Positions 3,988 to 51,116 of a stretch of DNA of 64,000 nt are shown piece after piece. Under the pieces are notes generated by a model. The model saw only the letters and a list, made by a program, of their open reading frames with translations. It was not told the DNA's origin and ran no database searches. The position numbers were made by a program, and so were the translations under genes. Each line of letters starts with the position of its first letter. Within the stretch, counting starts at the first letter, position 1. The stretch lies in the NCBI RefSeq assembly GCF_057098645.1, contig NZ_CM169472.1; one strand, written 5' to 3'.

Positions 3988-4896
3988 ATGGCGAACTGGG
4001 CGCAAAAATTAAAACTACATCACCTTGAAATGCTGGTGGCGTTGGGTGAACAGGGCAATCTGACCCATGTCGCACGAATGATGAATATCACCCAACCTGC
4101 GCTTTCGAAATGGTTGTCACAACTCGAAGATGAGATTGGAATCACACTTTTTGAGCGGCACAGCAAAGGATTACGTCCGACTGAAGGCGGCAAATTGTTA
4201 TTGCAACATGCCCAACGGTTAATCAATGACATGGAGCGATCGCAACATGAACTGGCCCGTTTTAAACAAGGTGGACTGGTCGGCAGTCTGAAAATTGGCT
4301 GTTCTCCCGTCGCCACTGACTGCGTATCCCAGGCGATTTTGCATTTGCTTACGAAGATGCCAACTCTACACCTGAATATCGAAGAGAAGGTGATGACCCC
4401 ATTGCTGCAAGATCTGTTGGCAGGTTCTGTCGACGTGGTCGTTGGGCGAATTGGCGGTCGCGCCTTGCAACTGCCACTGAATTATCAGGTGCTGTACACC
4501 GAGCCAGTATGCTTTGTCGCCAGCCCTGAGCACCCACTGGCGAAATACGCCACCCTCAGTTGGAATGATCTTGCCAACTGGCGCTGGATCGTCTGGCCGA
4601 CGGGTACCCCCATTCGCATTAGTATTGATAATGCGCTGGTAGACCACGGCGTAATGCTGCCAGAAAACACGATTGAGTCGGCGTCGATGAACGTCAGTAC
4701 CAACCTGTTACAAAGCAGCGATATGATCTCTATTTTGTCATTACGCCTGGCGCAACGTTATGCCAGCCAGGGACAACTGGTGATACTCAACCTGCCAAAG
4801 ATAGAACAGAAAGGCAGCGTCGGTGTGTTCTGGCGCAATAACGAAACGCCTTCTTATGCTTTAAGTCAGTTTCTGCACTTTTTACAGCAGAATTAG
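3988..4896 (+). CDS. mhbR: LysR-family transcriptional regulator of the gentisate operon
   Basis: 302 aa; N-terminal HTH (LTHVARMMNITQPALSKWLSQLE) typical of LysR; divergent from catabolic operon. Confidence 0.8.
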   Translation: MANWAQKLKLHHLEMLVALGEQGNLTHVARMMNITQPALSKWLSQLEDEIGITLFERHSKGLRPTEGGKLLLQHAQRLINDMERSQHELARFKQGGLVGSLKIGCSPVATDCVSQAILHLLTKMPTLHLNIEEKVMTPLLQDLLAGSVDVVVGRIGGRALQLPLNYQVLYTEPVCFVASPEHPLAKYATLSWNDLANWRWIVWPTGTPIRISIDNALVDHGVMLPENTIESASMNVSTNLLQSSDMISILSLRLAQRYASQGQLVILNLPKIEQKGSVGVFWRNNETPSYALSQFLHFLQQN

Positions 4897-5149
4897 TGTG
4901 CTGAACTGGGCATTCGCACGATGTTACTTCCCTGTAATTCAACGATGCGTAATTTTTCGGGGAATCGTGCACTGTGATAAGGCGTGATCTTTCATGGGGT
5001 GAAAATCCCACCAGGTGACTGTCGTTCCAGCCGGTAGCAGTCAAAGCAGTCGTGTGGGTAACAAAGCGGCTGATGTATTTGATGAAGAAGCTGTAGGTGT
5101 TTCAGTGAGTATACAGGTCATAATGTGAGTGAATCTGAGCAGGCCTCGA

Positions 5150-5930
5150 AAGAACCAATTGGAAGGACAACCCATTAGGAATTCCCAGAAAACAAGACAG
5201 GCATAGTGAGATGTGATCTAATTGATTGTGCTAGCAATTTCAAGGATATCACCACTATGCCTGCACGTTCATTATGCCAAAAATTCCTTAAAAACATACT
5301 GGCCACTTTGCATTTCTACCATCAAAAATCACTGATTGACGCAACAAATGCTGTAATAAATGGCGCTTCCCTCACGCTTAGCAGCATCGGGCGTCATTTA
5401 ACCAGACAGCATTAGTTAAAAACAAGATAAAGCGGGTGGATTGACCGTTGGGGAATTCTCAACTGAAAAATGATCTTCCCACCATTTTTCAGTTGGTTAC
5501 TCAAAAAAATACGCTGAGAATGTTCGTGTTGTTGTACGCCTTCGCCAGCAGTGGCAGGATGTTCAGGAGGAGTGTCGGCAGGCAGAGGTCGGATCAGGAG
5601 AGCGGCTGCGTAATGCCCTGCTGAATGTGGATTATACCACCAGTTTTGAACTGCCTTTTCGTCTGCTTTTAACCCGCACGTCACAGCTGATTGCTGTGCT
5701 TTGGGAAGAATGGGATATCAGCCAGAAAAATGTGGTGTTTAACGATAAACGCTTTGGTTGCGTGTATAGCCTGAAGGCCAGTCTTTCCGGCGTGCGGATA
5801 CATTCCGGTATCATCTGTCTCACCGTATTCGCCGGATGGTTGGGAATGAAATACATCATCGCCTTGGCAGCAGATTGCCCGGAAAGTGAAAGCGCTCCGT
5901 GAATGACTTAAGTATGCGCTAGAGGAGGGA
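5150..5930 (+). mobile_element. degenerate IS4-family (IS10-like) transposase remnant, frameshifted and 3'-truncated
   Basis: Short ORFs 5206-5415 and 5627-5902 carry IS10-like N-terminal motifs (ASLTLSSIGRHL cf. IS10 TLTLTELGRNL; IAVLWEEWDISQK cf. IVLVDWSDIREQK); boundaries approximate. Confidence 0.4.
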
Positions 5931-6082
5931 TTACTGGTGACCGCACTGGACGGTCTGTTCTGGTCTGGTAGTCAGCGTATTGCGGAAGATATTCTGTGTC
6001 GTTACGGGGAAGTCATCTTCACAGGGATCTTCAGTCAGTTAGTATTACCGACATTCATTCACCAACTTACCGGAGATAATCG

Positions 6083-6412
6083 ATGTCAAAACCCCGATGG
6101 ACCATTGAACAGAAAAGGCAGCACGTTGCTGCCTGGCGCGCCAGTGGTCTTACACGTCAGCAATACTGTGAACTCAACGATATTCCCTTCACATCACTTC
6201 GCGAATGGCCGCAGGATGTCGCAAAAGCTGAACGCCGGGCAAATGAACCGACCGTTCTTCCCGTTCATATTGCGCCACCACTGCATGCTGATGTACCACA
6301 GCCCGTCACGAATGAGCCAGTCACGCTCTTCCTTCCCGGCGGAGTACGGATGTGCTGTCAGCCGTCACAACTTACCGATGTCTTCAGGGCGCTCAAATAT
6401 GCTCAGTCCTGA
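6083..6412 (+). CDS. IS66-family accessory protein TnpA (orf1)
   Basis: 109 aa, HTH-like (WTIEQKRQHVAAWRASGLTRQQYCELNDI); stop overlaps tnpB start. Confidence 0.65.
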   Translation: MSKPRWTIEQKRQHVAAWRASGLTRQQYCELNDIPFTSLREWPQDVAKAERRANEPTVLPVHIAPPLHADVPQPVTNEPVTLFLPGGVRMCCQPSQLTDVFRALKYAQS

Positions 6413-6791
6413 TAATGTCTTCATCGCGATTAAACCTGTTGACATGCGCCGGGGCATCGACACACTGACGCAGTATATACAGGATGAACTCCGGTCGACA
6501 TGGCATGAGGGAGCCGCCTTCGTCTTTGTTAACAAAGACCGTTCGCGTATCAAAGTTCTCCGGTGGGATAAACACGGGGTGTGGTTGTGTACCCGCCGTC
6601 TTCACAAAGGCAGCTTCCGCTGGCCACGTGCAAATGATGCTGCCTGGCACCTCACTCCCGACGAGTTTAACTGGCTGATTGCCGGTGTTGACTGGCAGCA
6701 GGTTAAGGGACATGGCCTGACGAAATGGGTCTGGCAAAATGAACCTGAACTGCGCCCTGAAAACACGCAAAACACACTGCTAACTCACTGA
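6399..6791 (+). CDS. IS66-family TnpB (orf2)
   Basis: In-frame ATG at 6399 within track ORF 5937-6791; sequence MLSPDNVFIAIKPVDMRRGIDTL... resembles IS66 orf2. Confidence 0.6.
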   Translation: MLSPDNVFIAIKPVDMRRGIDTLTQYIQDELRSTWHEGAAFVFVNKDRSRIKVLRWDKHGVWLCTRRLHKGSFRWPRANDAAWHLTPDEFNWLIAGVDWQQVKGHGLTKWVWQNEPELRPENTQNTLLTH

Positions 6792-6797
6792 AAAATA

Positions 6798-7845
6798 ATG
6801 AATATTCGTATCCGGAGTGGTATGCTCCCCTGTATGGATATCTCCGCTCTCAACACCACGAATGACATCGAAAAACTGCGTGCTATGGCACTTGCCATGG
6901 TACAAAAAGTCATGTCGGAGAATGCCGAAAAAGAGCGGGAATTACTGGAGAAAAGCCGGCGCATCCAGCTTCTGGAAGAAATGCTGAAACTGGTTCGTCA
7001 ACAGCGCTTCGGTAAAAAATGTGAAACGCTGGCTGGTATGCAACGCTCCCTGTTCGAAGAGGATGTTGATGTCGATATCGCCGAGCTCACCGCACATCTG
7101 GATAAACTGCTCCCGCAATCCCCTGAAGAAGACGAAAAAGCGTCCCGTTCACGCCCGATACGCAAACCCTTACCGGCTCATCTTCCACGGGTGGAAAAAA
7201 TTATCCAGCCGGACACTGACCATTGCCCTGAATGTGACGAGCCGCTGCACTATATCCGTGATGCGGTGAGTGAAAAGCTGGAGTATATTCCCGCTCACTT
7301 TGTGGTGAACTGTTATGTCCGTCCGCAATACAGTTGTCCCTGTTGCCAGAAGGTGTTCAGCGGTGAAATGCCGGCACATATCCTCCCGAAAAGTGCCGTT
7401 GAGCCATCAGTCATCGCACAGGTGATCATCAATAAATACGGTGAGCACCTGCCTCTGTATCGCCAGCAACAGGTCTTTGCCCGTTCAGATGTCGGACTGC
7501 CCGTCAGTTCGATGGCTGACATGGTTGGCGCGGCAGGGGCCGCATTATCCCCCCTCGCGGCGTTACTCCATCGCGAATTGATAAGCCGTCCGGTGGTGCA
7601 TGCAGATGAGACTACCCTGAAGATCCTGAACACGAAGAAAGGCGGTAAATCCTGCTCCGGTTATCTGTGGGCATACGTCAGTGGAGAAAGGACGGGACCG
7701 TCAGTTGTGTGCTTCGACTGCCGGACCGGACGTAGCCATGAGTATCCTGAAAACTGGCTTCAGGGCTGGGGCGGGACGCTGGTTGTCGACGGACATAAAG
7801 CTTACCGGACTCTGGCAAACAAAGTGCCGGAGCTGGCGAATATCA
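6798..7845 (+). pseudogene. IS66-family transposase TnpC, C-terminally truncated (about 350 of about 520 aa)
   Basis: Coiled-coil N-term, zinc finger CPECDE...CPCCQ, DDE motifs; homology ends after LVVDGHKAYRTLANKVPEL where a Gly/Ala-rich PT-VENN-like sequence begins. Confidence 0.6.
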
Positions 7846-48793: not shown

Positions 48794-49678
48794 ATGTCTC
48801 ATATAAAAGACCCGACCACGCAGTATTACACTGGTGAATATCCCAAACAGAAACAACCGACGCCAGGCATCCAGGCGAAGATGACACCGGTACCGGATTG
48901 CGGCGAGAAAACCTATGTTGGTAGCGGTCGCCTGAAAGATCGTAAAGCACTGGTGACAGGGGGCGATTCCGGAATCGGTCGCGCTGCCGCCATCGCTTAC
49001 GCGCGTGAAGGGGCTGACGTGGCGATCAGTTATCTTCCCGTGGAAGAAGAAGACGCTCAGGATGTGAAAAAGATCATTGAAGAATGCGGACGCAAAGCCG
49101 TTCTGCTGCCAGGCGATTTAAGCGATGAGAAATTCGCCCGTTCGCTGGTTCACGAAGCGCACAAGGCGTTAGGCGGGCTGGATATTATGGCGCTGGTCGC
49201 CGGGAAACAGGTTGCCATTCCTGATATTGCAGACCTCACCAGCGAACAGTTTCAAAAGACCTTTGCCATTAACGTTTTCGCGCTGTTCTGGCTAACCCAG
49301 GAAGCGATCCCCCTGCTACCGAAAGGTGCAAGTATCATCACCACTTCGTCAATCCAGGCATACCAGCCAAGTCCGCATTTACTGGACTATGCGGCTACGA
49401 AGGCGGCGATTCTGAACTACAGCCGTGGCCTGGCAAAACAGGTCGCGGAGAAAGGTATTCGGGTGAATATTGTCGCGCCAGGCCCTATCTGGACGGCACT
49501 ACAAATTTCCGGCGGACAAACGCAGGATAAGATCCCGCAGTTTGGTCAGAAAACGCCGATGAAGCGTGCGGGGCAACCGGCGGAACTGGCCCCAGTATAT
49601 GTTTATCTGGCAAGTCAGGAGTCGAGCTACGTCACCGCAGAAGTGCACGGTGTGTGCGGCGGCGAGCATTTAGGTTAA
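48794..49678 (+). CDS. yghA: SDR-family NAD(P)-dependent oxidoreductase
   Basis: 294 aa; [11 protein letters not shown]ossmann and YxxxK. Confidence 0.9.
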
Positions 49679-49744
49679 AAAAATGCCCGGTTGTGAAAAG
49701 CAACCGGGCATCATTGTGAATTCACTCTTACCTGATGTGGCGAA

Positions 49745-49940
49745 AACGCCTTATCCGCCTACAAACGCATGAAGATTCAACATGTTGCAATAGATTTTGT
49801 AGGCCTGATAAGCGTAGCGCATCAGGCATTGAGCACCTAATGCCGGATGCGGCGTGAACGCCTTATCCGGCCTACAAACGCACGAAGATTCAACATGTTG
49901 CAATAGATTTTGTAGGCCTGATGAGCGTAGCGCATCAGGC
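49745..49940. repeat. tandemly duplicated REP/BIME unit (two copies of about 85 bp, period about 111 bp)
   Basis: ACGCCTTATCCG(G)CCTACAAACGCA(T/C)GAAGATTCAACATGTTGCAATAGATTTTGTAGGCCTGAT(A/G)AGCGTAGCGCATCAGGCA occurs at about 49745-49828 and 49856-49940. Confidence 0.8.
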
Positions 49941-49949
49941 AATTCTACT

Positions 49950-50375
49950 TTACTTCGCTTTGGCGGTTTCTTCGCCGACCAGACCTATCTTCAGGTAACC
50001 CGCCTGATGCAGCGTATCCATTACCTTCATCAACGTCTCGTAATCGACGGTTTTATCCGCTCGGAAGAAGATGGTGGTGTCTTTCTTGCCTTCGGTTAAC
50101 GCATTCAACGCCGTAATCATTGTTTCATCGGTGACCGGATCGTTACCGATAAACATCGAGTTGTCTGCCTTCACCGACAGATAAACCGGTTTTTCCGGGC
50201 GCGGCTGCGGCGTGCTGGTAGAAGCAGGCAAGTTAACCTTCACATCTACCGTCGCTAACGGTGCCGCCACCATAAAGATAATCAGCAGAACCAACATCAC
50301 GTCGATAAACGGCGTCACGTTGATATCATGCATTTCGCCGTTATCATCGAGGTTTTCGTTAAGATGCATTGCCAT
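49950..50375 (-). CDS. exbD: TonB-system biopolymer transport protein
   Basis: 141 aa; single TM; matches ExbD. Confidence 0.95.
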   Translation of the reverse strand: MAMHLNENLDDNGEMHDINVTPFIDVMLVLLIIFMVAAPLATVDVKVNLPASTSTPQPRPEKPVYLSVKADNSMFIGNDPVTDETMITALNALTEGKKDTTIFFRADKTVDYETLMKVMDTLHQAGYLKIGLVGEETAKAK

Positions 50376-50381
50376 CGGACA

Positions 50382-51116
50382 TTATCCTGCACGTAATTTT
50401 TGTGCGACACGAACCGGATGCGCAGCGGCGCTGGCTTCCAGATCCAGGTCACGGCTTTGCAGCAACAATACCTGCGCTGCAACATCACCCAGCATCGCTT
50501 TAAAGCCGCCAATCTGGCGTGCAAATACGTTATAGATAACGACCGCCGGAATCGCTGCCACCAGACCGATTGCCGTTGCTAACAGAGCTTCTGCGATACC
50601 CGGCGCAACGACTGCCAGGTTAGTAGTCTGCGTTTGCGCGATACCAATAAAGCTGTTCATGATGCCCCAGACCGTACCAAACAGACCAACGAACGGCGAA
50701 ATCGCGCCGATGGTTGCCAGATAGCCGTTACCGCGGCCCATTTGACGACCTACTGCGGCGACCCGACGCTCCAGACGGAAGCTGGTACGTTCTTTAATAC
50801 CTTCGTTATCGTCGCTGCCTTCTGACAGTTCCAGCTCATTCTGCGCTTCATTGAGCAAATGCAGGCTTAAGCTTTTGCTACCAAAATCAGCGGCGATATC
50901 GTTGGCCTGGTTTAAGGAACGCGCTTCAGCCAGCAGTTGCTGCTCGCGCTTAAGGCGACGCTTCTGATTGAAGAACTCTACGCTCTTACTGAAGAAGATT
51001 GCCCAGGTGACTACGGAGGCCAAAATAAGCCCAATCATCACGCACTTAACGACAATATCGGCGTGCTGATACATACCCCAGACGGAAAGGTCCGTCTGCA
51101 TTAAATTATTACCCAC
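50382..51116 (-). CDS. exbB: TonB-system proton-channel protein
   Basis: 244 aa; MotA/TolQ/ExbB family. Confidence 0.95.
   Translation of the reverse strand: MGNNLMQTDLSVWGMYQHADIVVKCVMIGLILASVVTWAIFFSKSVEFFNQKRRLKREQQLLAEARSLNQANDIAADFGSKSLSLHLLNEAQNELELSEGSDDNEGIKERTSFRLERRVAAVGRQMGRGNGYLATIGAISPFVGLFGTVWGIMNSFIGIAQTQTTNLAVVAPGIAEALLATAIGLVAAIPAVVIYNVFARQIGGFKAMLGDVAAQVLLLQSRDLDLEASAAAHPVRVAQKLRAG

What the first reader, a model, noticed from the sequence alone, without database searches (positions are those of the whole stretch)
49745..49940. Tandemly duplicated REP/BIME unit between yghA and exbD
Two nearly identical copies of about 85 bp (2 mismatches, period about 111 bp), each ending in a REP palindrome. 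Such composite BIMEs bind IHF or gyrase and can stabilise the upstream transcript; the duplication is a small structural variant.
Basis: seen in the sequence. Interest (0 to 1): 0.2.

Follow-up and report, generated by a model that had tools for sequence, protein, structure and literature searches.

The report
Known double REP/BIME element (REP222)
The repeat is real, but it is an ordinary and already catalogued E. coli repetitive element (REP222): two side-by-side palindromic units between the yghA and exbD genes, present in about two thirds of E. coli strains and absent from most others.

Summary
Window 49757-49828 and 49870-49941 are a 72-nt direct repeat with 2 mismatches (period 113). It extends 27 nt leftwards at 85% identity with a 1-nt indel.

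The anatomy is four palindromic units in alternating orientation: degenerate Y, L linker, Z1, S-like linker, Y, L linker, Z1. That makes two BIME-1-type (RIB/RIP) units in tandem, which published definitions call an "atypical BIME". Each L linker carries the IHF-type core ATTCAACATGTTG.

The whole 233-bp block (49716-49948) lies between the exbD stop codon and a hairpin terminator whose T-run is on the exbBD strand.

Among 5426 complete E. coli genomes:
- about 3500 carry the two-unit form, including K-12 MG1655, IAI1 and EDL933;
- at least 1566 have a clean empty site with a 38-bp spacer;
- 40 to about 92 carry a one-unit collapse;
- none carries three units.

Outgroup genera have 38-61-bp spacers without REPs, so the empty site is probably ancestral.

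In K-12 the element is annotated as REP222. Its REP-containing transcripts have been studied by Northern blot (PMC10100675).

The element is already known and of low interest.

The parts
48794..49678 (+). yghA coding sequence (NADP+-dependent aldehyde reductase), convergent with exbD
   Evidence: ORF list; RefSeq annotation under the match
49672..49712 (-). Intrinsic-terminator hairpin (stem 49712->49682) with its T-run on the minus strand, so it terminates exbBD. There is an A-run on the plus strand, and it is listed as a bidirectional terminator for exbB:exbD:yghA. It is not REP-like.
   Evidence: Terminator scan; RNA folds; supplement table of bioRxiv 10.64898/2026.03.23.713779; REP-reference alignment score 5-7 against a random mean of 8
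49716..49948 (.). The whole 233-bp block that is absent from empty-site alleles. The empty junction reads CATCATT|TTTACTTCGC. The placement is unique and there is no target-site duplication.
   Evidence: Alignment A1; empty-junction query matches 1566 genomes; allele sequences
49716..49730 (+). Left flank of the block (GTGAATTCACTCTTA), diverged from the flank CGTACTTT..CT seen in other alleles
49731..49762 (+). PU1: degenerate Y-type REP (29 of 35 reference positions; 3 substitutions and 1 deletion in the aligned 33 columns)
   Evidence: Alignment to reference REPs quoted in PMC11208160
49763..49798 (+). L linker 1 (36 nt, tail-to-tail), containing the IHF-type core ATTCAACATGTTG at 49775-49787 and the palindrome CAACATGTTG
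49799..49827 (-). PU2: Z1-type REP (29/29 to the reference). It contains the IS621 natural target ATCAGGCCTAC (49799-49809, minus strand).
   Evidence: IS621 is inserted at exactly this PU in strain SRY149
49828..49840 (+). Head-to-head S-like linker (ATTGAGCACCTAA), present once, joining the two units
   Evidence: similar linker ATCGAGCACAAT in the BIME at 38750-38832
49841..49875 (+). PU3: Y-type REP (34/35 to the reference)
49876..49911 (+). L linker 2 (36 nt; 1 mismatch to L1), with the IHF-type core at 49888-49900
49912..49940 (-). PU4: Z1-type REP (28/29). It contains a second ATCAGGCCTAC (49912-49922, minus strand).
49941..49948 (+). Right flank of the block (AATTCTAC), just before the exbD stop codon
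49802..49872 (-). Central Z1-S-Y head-to-head pair. It matches Rfam naRNA4 (RF02564) at 68.1 bits against a gathering score of 59.5.
49950..50375 (-). exbD coding sequence; its stop codon at 49950-49952 abuts the block

Best explanation
This is the catalogued E. coli repeat REP222. It is an 'atypical BIME' made of two BIME-1-type (RIB/RIP) units, each Y-REP / L linker / inverted Z1-REP, joined head-to-head by one S-like linker. It is a 233-bp insertion into an ancestrally 38-bp spacer between the convergent genes yghA and exbD, placed between the exbD stop codon and the shared hairpin terminator.

Shown here: the anatomy, the family typing, the position, the allele spectrum (0, 1 or 2 units) and the local origin of the two units. 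The units share private L-linker changes that the closest paralogues lack. The near-identical block is only L-Z1, which points to local duplication or gene conversion rather than two independent insertions.

Inferred mechanism:
- RNA level. The element is transcribed as part of the exbBD 3' UTR and of read-through yghA transcripts. Its stable REP hairpins then impede 3'-to-5' exonucleases and give long-lived REP-containing fragments, whose removal needs RNase E and the degradosome. Published Northern blots on yghA/REP222 support this.
- DNA level. The two L linkers offer two IHF-type sites. This rests on homology to RIBs and was not tested at this locus.
- Recombination. The 72-nt repeats occasionally collapse two units into one, and the Z1 tails serve as IS621 targets.
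For: - Repeat and palindromes.
- PU typing against reference Y, Z1 and Z2: 29/35, 29/29, 34/35 and 28/29.
- Family definitions from Ton-Hoang et al. 2012 (PMC3333891): BIME-1 is y + z1 + L with an IHF site and occurs singly; atypical BIMEs are multi-copy chimeras whose copy number varies between strains.
- IHF-type cores at 49775-49787 and 49888-49900, carrying the same single mismatch as the paralogues.
- Rfam naRNA4 hit above the gathering score.
- Terminator with its T-run on the minus strand, listed as a bidirectional terminator tied to REP222.
- Strongly stable folds on both strands: -112.1 kcal/mol (z = -7.9) and -110.8 kcal/mol (z = -6.8).
- REP222 named for exbB, exbD and yghA. yghA REP transcripts (full length about 1000 nt, intermediate about 300 nt) are stabilised by NaF, by RNase E inactivation and by degradosome truncation (PMC10100675).
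- Allele counts.
- Closest paralogues (gyrB-yidB, yijF-gldA) are only 86-90% identical and lack the local L variants.
- Outgroup spacers are 38-61 bp without REPs, and Escherichia sp. MOD1-EC7003 has the identical 38-bp empty site.
- The one-unit EC5 allele combines the copy-1 variant (T) with the copy-2 variant (G), as expected from a crossover between the repeats.
Against: - IHF occupancy at this locus could not be checked, because no ChIP table was available.
- The published full-length yghA RNA of about 1000 nt is closer to termination at the hairpin than to a transcript containing the roughly 230-nt BIME block. How much yghA mRNA carries the element is therefore unclear, and I could not establish the strand specificity of the REP probe.
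- About 29% of strains do without the element, so it is dispensable.
- The K-12 annotation quoted in the literature counts five REPs, and I can type only four.
Confidence: 0.85

Rival explanations
1. Two BIME-1 elements inserted independently next to each other, rather than one unit duplicated or converted locally.
For: The Y parts of the two units differ much more (5 of 28 positions) than the L-Z1 parts (2 of 72). BIME-1 elements are dispersed at a median of about 12 long matches per genome. Single BIME-1 alleles exist at this same site (E69, EC42405).
Against: Both local L linkers share AAGATTCAACATGTTGCAATAGATTTT. The closest genomic paralogues instead have AAAATTCAATACATTGCAA-GATTTTC and CAAATTCAATATATTGCAG-AGATTGC. 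Those paralogues reach only 86-90% identity. Ton-Hoang et al. note that tandem copies at one locus are well conserved relative to other loci.
Confidence: 0.07
2. An assembly artefact, or a very recent strain-specific duplication.
For: Short tandem repeats can be mis-assembled. One-unit alleles exist.
Against: The identical two-unit structure, with the same two fixed differences, is present in about 3500 independent complete genomes, including K-12 MG1655, IAI1 and O157:H7 EDL933. No three-unit allele is found.
Confidence: 0.01
3. A functional small-RNA gene of the naRNA4 type that acts with HU in nucleoid organisation.
For: Rfam RF02564 scores 68.1 bits, above the gathering score of 59.5, at 49802-49872 on the minus strand. 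Qian et al. 2015 (PMC4550694, abstract) report that most REPs are transcribed.
Against: The model is effectively a generic REP-pair model. It also hits the plus strand (50.2 bits) and the unrelated BIME at 38753-38829 (84.8 bits). Here the second hairpin is Z1, not Z2, with deletions in the alignment. [quoted passage not shown] No promoter-like site was found in the block.
Confidence: 0.04
4. A gyrase-binding BIME-2-type element.
For: The central head-to-head pair with a short S-like linker resembles the BIME-2 core. REPs and BIMEs are reported to bind gyrase (PMC3333891 introduction).
Against: BIME-2 is defined by y + z2. Both inverted units here are Z1 (29/29 and 28/29 to Z1, against 28/37 to Z2). 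The tail-to-tail linkers are L-type, not s, l or r.
Confidence: 0.03

Closest known systems
BIME-1 / RIB / RIP elements (e.g. the one between gyrB and yidB, locus L006, and between yijF and gldA, locus L007)
   Same: Each unit here has the same parts in the same order: a Y REP, a roughly 35-nt L linker with the core ATTCAA-N4-TTG, and an inverted Z1 REP. Like them it lies at the 3' ends of genes. Identity is 86-90% over the whole 99-nt unit.
   Different: BIME-1 is described as occurring singly. Here two units are joined by an S-like linker, the first Y is degenerate, and the L linkers carry locus-specific changes (CATG instead of TAYA in the N4 spacer, and a 1-nt longer 3' part).
[quoted passage not shown] 2012, PMC3333891)
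   Same: It combines y, z1, L and S motifs. It occurs in multiple copies at one locus, the copies are well conserved within the locus, and the copy number varies between strains.
   Different: None that I could test. This is the class in which it fits.
REP325 / naRNA4 (Rfam RF02564), a BIME-2 cluster in yjdM-yjdN
   Same: A head-to-head REP pair with a short linker that scores above the Rfam gathering threshold. It sits in a 3' UTR and has a proposed terminator/stabiliser role.
   Different: REP325 has six Y-Z2 repeats in a tandem operon. This element has Z1 units and L linkers with IHF-type cores, two units only, and lies between convergent genes next to a canonical hairpin terminator.
REPIN/RAYT (TnpA-REP) mobile REP doublets
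   Same: Inverted REP pairs dispersed through the genome. The filled and empty sites have a clean junction and no target duplication.
   Different: No transposase link was tested here, and the local copy-number changes look like homologous recombination between the 72-nt repeats.

Membership tests
REP / palindromic unit (Y, Z1, Z2) | Imperfect palindrome of about 30-35 nt matching a Y, Z1 or Z2 reference and ending in the CTAC/GTAG tail | tested here: met
   PU1 Y 29/35, PU2 Z1 29/29, PU3 Y 34/35, PU4 Z1 28/29 against the references quoted in PMC11208160
REP / palindromic unit (Y, Z1, Z2) | Extragenic location, typically at 3' ends of transcription units | tested here: met
   Lies between the stop codons of the convergent genes yghA and exbD
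BIME (mosaic element) | REPs in alternating orientation separated by conserved linker motifs | tested here: met
   Orientations are +, -, +, - with L, S-like and L linkers
BIME-1 (RIB/RIP) | One y and one z1 REP separated by the long L linker | tested here: met
   Each of the two units is Y-L-Z1 and aligns full-length with the gyrB-yidB and yijF-gldA elements
BIME-1 (RIB/RIP) | The L linker carries an IHF binding site | tested here: inconclusive
   ATTCAACATGTTG is present twice with one mismatch to WATCAANNNNTTR, the same mismatch as in the paralogues. Actual binding could not be tested and no ChIP data were retrievable.
BIME-1 (RIB/RIP) | Occurs as a single copy at a locus | tested here: not met
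   Two tandem units in the window and in about 3500 genomes. The cluster as a whole is therefore not filed as a plain BIME-1.
BIME-2 | Composed of y and z2 REPs with the S linker, in tandem copies flanked by s, l or r motifs | tested here: not met
   Both inverted units type as Z1, not Z2, and the tail-to-tail linkers are L-type
Atypical BIME | Chimera combining BIME-1 and BIME-2 motifs (y, z1, z2, L, S...), multi-copy, with copy number varying between strains | tested here: met
   The motifs y, z1, L and S-like are combined. Alleles with 0, 1 and 2 units occur across 5426 genomes. Definition from PMC3333891.
naRNA4 (Rfam RF02564) | Covariance-model score at or above the curated gathering score | tested here: met
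   68.1 bits against 59.5 at 49802-49872, minus strand
naRNA4 (Rfam RF02564) | A discrete HU-associated RNA with a role in the nucleoid | not testable with these tools
   No expression data are available here. The role itself is disputed by bioRxiv 10.64898/2026.03.23.713779.
CRISPR array (possible false positive) | Three or more direct repeats separated by unique spacers of similar length | tested here: not met
   Only two direct copies. The intervening sequence is itself repeated and contains inverted copies of related palindromes. TRF finds no array. No CRISPR detector was run.
REPIN / RAYT-mobilised element | Association with, or dependence on, a REP-associated tyrosine transposase | not tested
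   No search for the transposase gene was made. Only the clean filled/empty junction without a target duplication was seen.

The most novel reading that the evidence does not exclude
The presence/absence polymorphism of this double IHF-type BIME in the exbBD 3' UTR acts as a natural regulatory switch. The element is present in K-12, IAI1 and O157-type strains. It is absent from ST131, SE15, ATCC 25922 and LF82-type strains, which I know as phylogroup B2. On this reading it changes exbBD (TonB energising complex) and/or yghA mRNA stability or termination between E. coli lineages, with two adjacent IHF bends adding a DNA-level effect on convergent transcription.
Probability: 0.12. Interest if true: 0.3.

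Novelty: already known. Interest (0 to 1): 0.08.

Why it matters
It matters little beyond careful bookkeeping. The element is annotated as REP222 in K-12, and transcripts carrying it have been studied. The useful outcomes are three. First, the repeat is neither an artefact nor a CRISPR-like array. Second, the locus offers a clean natural allelic series with spacers of 38 bp (empty), about 158 bp (one unit) and 271 bp (two units), plus an IS621-disrupted form. That series could be used to test what REPs and IHF-type linkers do to a pair of convergent genes. Third, by geometry the transcript most affected should be exbBD rather than yghA.

Tried and rejected
- Tandem Repeats Finder gave no rows; with fewer than two full periods it is uninformative.
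- The MG1655 RefSeq record held here lists only CDS features in this stretch, so the REP annotation could not be read directly. The name REP222 comes from two papers.
- A head-to-head junction query meant to count genomes with two or more units was not specific, because paralogous BIMEs elsewhere match it. Counts were instead derived from the empty-junction query, the full-length query, the one-unit allele query in best and spread modes and a synthetic three-unit query.
- Boccard & Prentki 1993 is not held. The Prieto 2012 supplements are not held. The Kasho 2021 supplements mention neither gene. IHF occupancy therefore remains unverified.
- The SCPM-O-B-8794-type and E69-type alleles found in the species-representative collection were searched in the complete-genome set. 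The first is absent, and only 5 records fall in the 90-95% identity band for the second. The one inspected, EC42405, carries an E69-like allele.
- The terminator hairpin was tested as a possible fifth REP and rejected: its score is below random background.
- Coding potential of ORFs inside the block (for example 49751-49942, minus strand, 63 aa) was dismissed. PGAP annotates nothing there, the block is missing from 29% of strains, and the ORFs are made of REP sequence.

Full report
**1. Observation**

The sequence between the yghA stop codon (49676-49678) and the exbD stop codon (49950-49952, minus strand) was read directly.
- The repeat finder reports a 72-nt gapless direct repeat, 49757-49828 and 49870-49941, with 2 mismatches and a start-to-start distance of 113 bp.
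- A further 27 nt to the left (49731-49757 and 49843-49869) match at 85% with spacing 112, which implies one 1-nt indel.
- The chance expectation for such a match in 64 kb is about 2e-30.
- Tandem Repeats Finder reports nothing.

The only corrections are the period (112-113, not 111) and the missed indel.

**2. Anatomy**

Four units appear in alternating orientation:

| Unit | Coordinates | Strand | Type | Match to reference |
|---|---|---|---|---|
| PU1 | 49731-49762 | + | degenerate Y | 29/35 |
| PU2 | 49799-49827 | - | Z1 | 29/29 |
| PU3 | 49841-49875 | + | Y | 34/35 |
| PU4 | 49912-49940 | - | Z1 | 28/29 |

- The two tail-to-tail linkers (49763-49798 and 49876-49911, 36 nt each) differ at one position.
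- Each of these linkers contains ATTCAACATGTTG, which has one mismatch to the IHF consensus WATCAANNNNTTR.
- The single head-to-head linker (49828-49840, ATTGAGCACCTAA) resembles the short linker ATCGAGCACAAT of another BIME in the window, at 38750-38832.
- Rfam's naRNA4 model (RF02564) matches the central Z1-linker-Y pair at 68.1 bits, above its gathering score of 59.5.

**3. Classification**

Ton-Hoang et al. 2012 (PMC3333891) summarise three classes.
- BIME-1 consists of y and z1 separated by a long, conserved L linker that often carries an IHF site. It occurs singly.
- BIME-2 consists of y and z2 with a short S linker, in tandem copies.
- Atypical BIMEs are chimeras of these motifs. They occur in multiple copies, the copies are well conserved within a locus, and the number varies between strains.

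Each unit here is a BIME-1-type unit. It aligns end to end with the elements between gyrB and yidB and between yijF and gldA. The cluster has two such units joined by an S-like linker, so as a whole it meets the definition of an atypical BIME. It fails the 'single copy' feature of BIME-1 and the 'z2' feature of BIME-2.

**4. Surroundings and strands**

The only terminator-like site in 49300-50300 is a 12-bp-stem hairpin read on the minus strand (49712 to 49682) followed by TTTTTAACCT.
- The exbBD transcript therefore runs from the exbD stop, through both units, to this terminator.
- On the plus strand the same hairpin follows the yghA stop directly, preceded by an A-run and with no T-run after it.
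- The supplement of a 2026 preprint lists exactly this hairpin as a bidirectional terminator for exbB:exbD:yghA and links it to REP222.
- The hairpin itself is not REP-like.
- Both strands of the region fold far more stably than shuffled controls: -112.1 kcal/mol (z = -7.9) and -110.8 kcal/mol (z = -6.8).

**5. Prior knowledge of this exact element**

PMC10100675 names REP222 (REPt222a-e, 'five REPs') for exbB, exbD and yghA.
- Its Northern blots show a yghA full-length RNA of about 1000 nt and a decay intermediate of about 300 nt.
- Both RNAs are stabilised by fluoride-induced ATP depletion, by RNase E inactivation and by removal of the degradosome scaffold.
- The 300-nt size fits the block plus terminator (274 nt from the exbD stop to the T-run). 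That link is my inference.
- I could not establish the probe's strand specificity.
- A full-length RNA of about 1000 nt is closer to termination at the hairpin than to a transcript containing the block.
- I can type four REPs, not five. This discrepancy is unresolved.

**6. Population survey (5426 complete E. coli genomes)**

| Allele | Spacer | Genomes |
|---|---|---|
| Full 451-nt query covered at least 80% (one- and two-unit forms together) | - | 3606 |
| Empty site (CATCATT\|TTTACTTCGC, lacking 49716-49948) | 38 bp | at least 1566 |
| One unit | 158 bp | at least 40, fewer than about 93 |
| Two units (by difference) | 271 bp | about 3500 (65%) |
| Three units | - | none |

- For the one-unit allele, 40 perfect single-piece matches were listed. 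In the evenly spaced ranking, only the first of 60 rows was a one-unit hit.
- The synthetic three-unit query is best matched by two pieces spanning a two-unit locus.
- A few more empty alleles have divergent flanks and escaped the junction query, for example USVAST219.
- Two-unit strains include K-12 MG1655, RV308, XL1-Blue, IAI1 and O157:H7 EDL933.
- Empty-site strains include ST131, SE15 and ATCC 25922. Their assignment to phylogroup B2 is from my own knowledge.
- Other forms exist, including an IS621 insertion in strain SRY149.

**7. History**

In genera where yghA and exbD are still convergent neighbours, the spacer is 38-61 bp and has no REP. These include Citrobacter amalonaticus, Atlantibacter, Kosakonia and Intestinirhabdus. 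Escherichia sp. MOD1-EC7003 has a 38-bp spacer identical to the E. coli empty allele. The empty site is therefore most likely ancestral and the block a later insertion. It has a unique placement and no target duplication.

Other alleles at the same point show remodelling.
- A single BIME-1 with an intact Y occurs in E69 and EC42405.
- A four-unit form, Y-l-Z2-S-Y-short linker-Z1, occurs in SCPM-O-B-8794.
- The SCPM-O-B-8794-type allele is absent from the complete-genome set. For the E69-type query only 5 records fall in the 90-95% identity band, and the one inspected, EC42405, carries such an allele.

Within the window-type allele:
- Both L linkers share variants that the nearest genomic paralogues lack. 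Those paralogues reach only 86-90% identity. This argues for local duplication or gene conversion.
- Divergence is uneven: 5 of 28 positions in the Y part against 2 of 72 in L-Z1 (Fisher p = 0.017). The event was therefore not a recent clean duplication of the whole unit.
- The rare one-unit EC5 allele carries the copy-1 variant (T at 49770) together with the copy-2 variant (G at 49923). This is as expected from a crossover within the 39 nt between them.

**8. Mechanism**

Shown: structure, family, position and polymorphism.

Supported by published experiments on this locus: REP-containing transcripts accumulate, and they need RNase E and the degradosome for decay.

Inferred:
- The main RNA-level effect falls on exbBD, because the block lies upstream of that strand's T-run.
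- The L linkers bind IHF, by homology with RIBs. This is unverified.

A gyrase role is less likely, because the inverted units are Z1 rather than Z2. A 2026 preprint cautions that REP effects depend on context. [quoted passage not shown]

**9. Verdict**

The finding is real and correctly interpreted in outline. The element is already known and catalogued, and it is dispensable in about 29% of strains. Interest is low.

Noticed in passing
L004 1700-2985 (strain SRY149; equivalent to window 49799-49809): An IS621 (IS110-family, bridge-RNA recombinase) copy sits inside PU2 of this element. The junctions read GTAG|ATACTG...ATACA|AGGCCTGAT, which is the published natural target ATCAGGCCTAC with its CT/AG core on both sides. 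The window carries two such 11-mers, at 49799-49809 and 49912-49922 on the minus strand.
   Followed up: yes
L020 (E. coli SCPM-O-B-8794), L036 (E. coli E69), L095 374-533 (E. coli EC42405): The same insertion point holds different BIME architectures in other lineages. E69 and EC42405 have a single BIME-1 with an intact Y. SCPM-O-B-8794 has a four-unit Y-l-Z2-S-Y-short linker-Z1 form. All share a left flank CGTACTTT..CT that differs from the window's GTGAATTCACTCTTA. The order of events was not resolved.
   Followed up: partly
window 38750-38832: A second REP pair (Y, linker ATCGAGCACAAT, Z2; BIME-2-like) lies between the convergent genes yghU and hybG. It gives the stronger naRNA4 Rfam hit in the window, 84.8 bits at 38753-38829 on the plus strand.
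   Followed up: partly
window 4993-5128 (context 4300-7800): An Rfam group-II-intron D1-D4-4 hit (69.9 bits) lies in a stretch annotated elsewhere as IS66-family and ISEc60 (IS4-like) transposase genes plus a LysR regulator. Only 56 of 5426 genomes cover this stretch at 80% or more. No intron reverse-transcriptase annotation was seen.
   Followed up: partly
window 50382-51116 (exbB); L001 2283-3017, L094 2934-3668: RefSeq/PGAP names the ExbB protein WP_000527844.1 'tol-pal system-associated acyl-CoA thioesterase' in several genomes. The MG1655 record calls the same gene 'Ton complex subunit ExbB'. This looks like a product-name error.
   Followed up: no
window 49716-49948; L005 (MG1655): The locus tags jump from b3003 (yghA) to b3005 (exbD), and several ORFs of 30-63 aa lie entirely within REP sequence (for example 49751-49942, minus strand). 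An ORF call inside the BIME was probably withdrawn. The K-12 annotation quoted in PMC10100675 counts five REPs where I can type four.
   Followed up: partly
L074 (Citrobacter sedlakii), L083/L084 (Leclercia), L085 (Silvania), L030 (Superficieibacter): In these genera the yghA-exbD spacer is 103-184 bp rather than about 40-60 bp. The one sequence I read, C. sedlakii, contains a species-specific palindromic repeat with a CCTAC tail. This suggests independent colonisation of the same convergent-gene gap.
   Followed up: no
L094 1-854 (strain USVAST219): An IS1397-family (IS3-like) transposase gene abuts a truncated gpr gene two genes upstream of yghA, in a strain with the empty yghA-exbD site. 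IS1397 is cited as a REP-targeting IS in PMC3333891.
   Followed up: no
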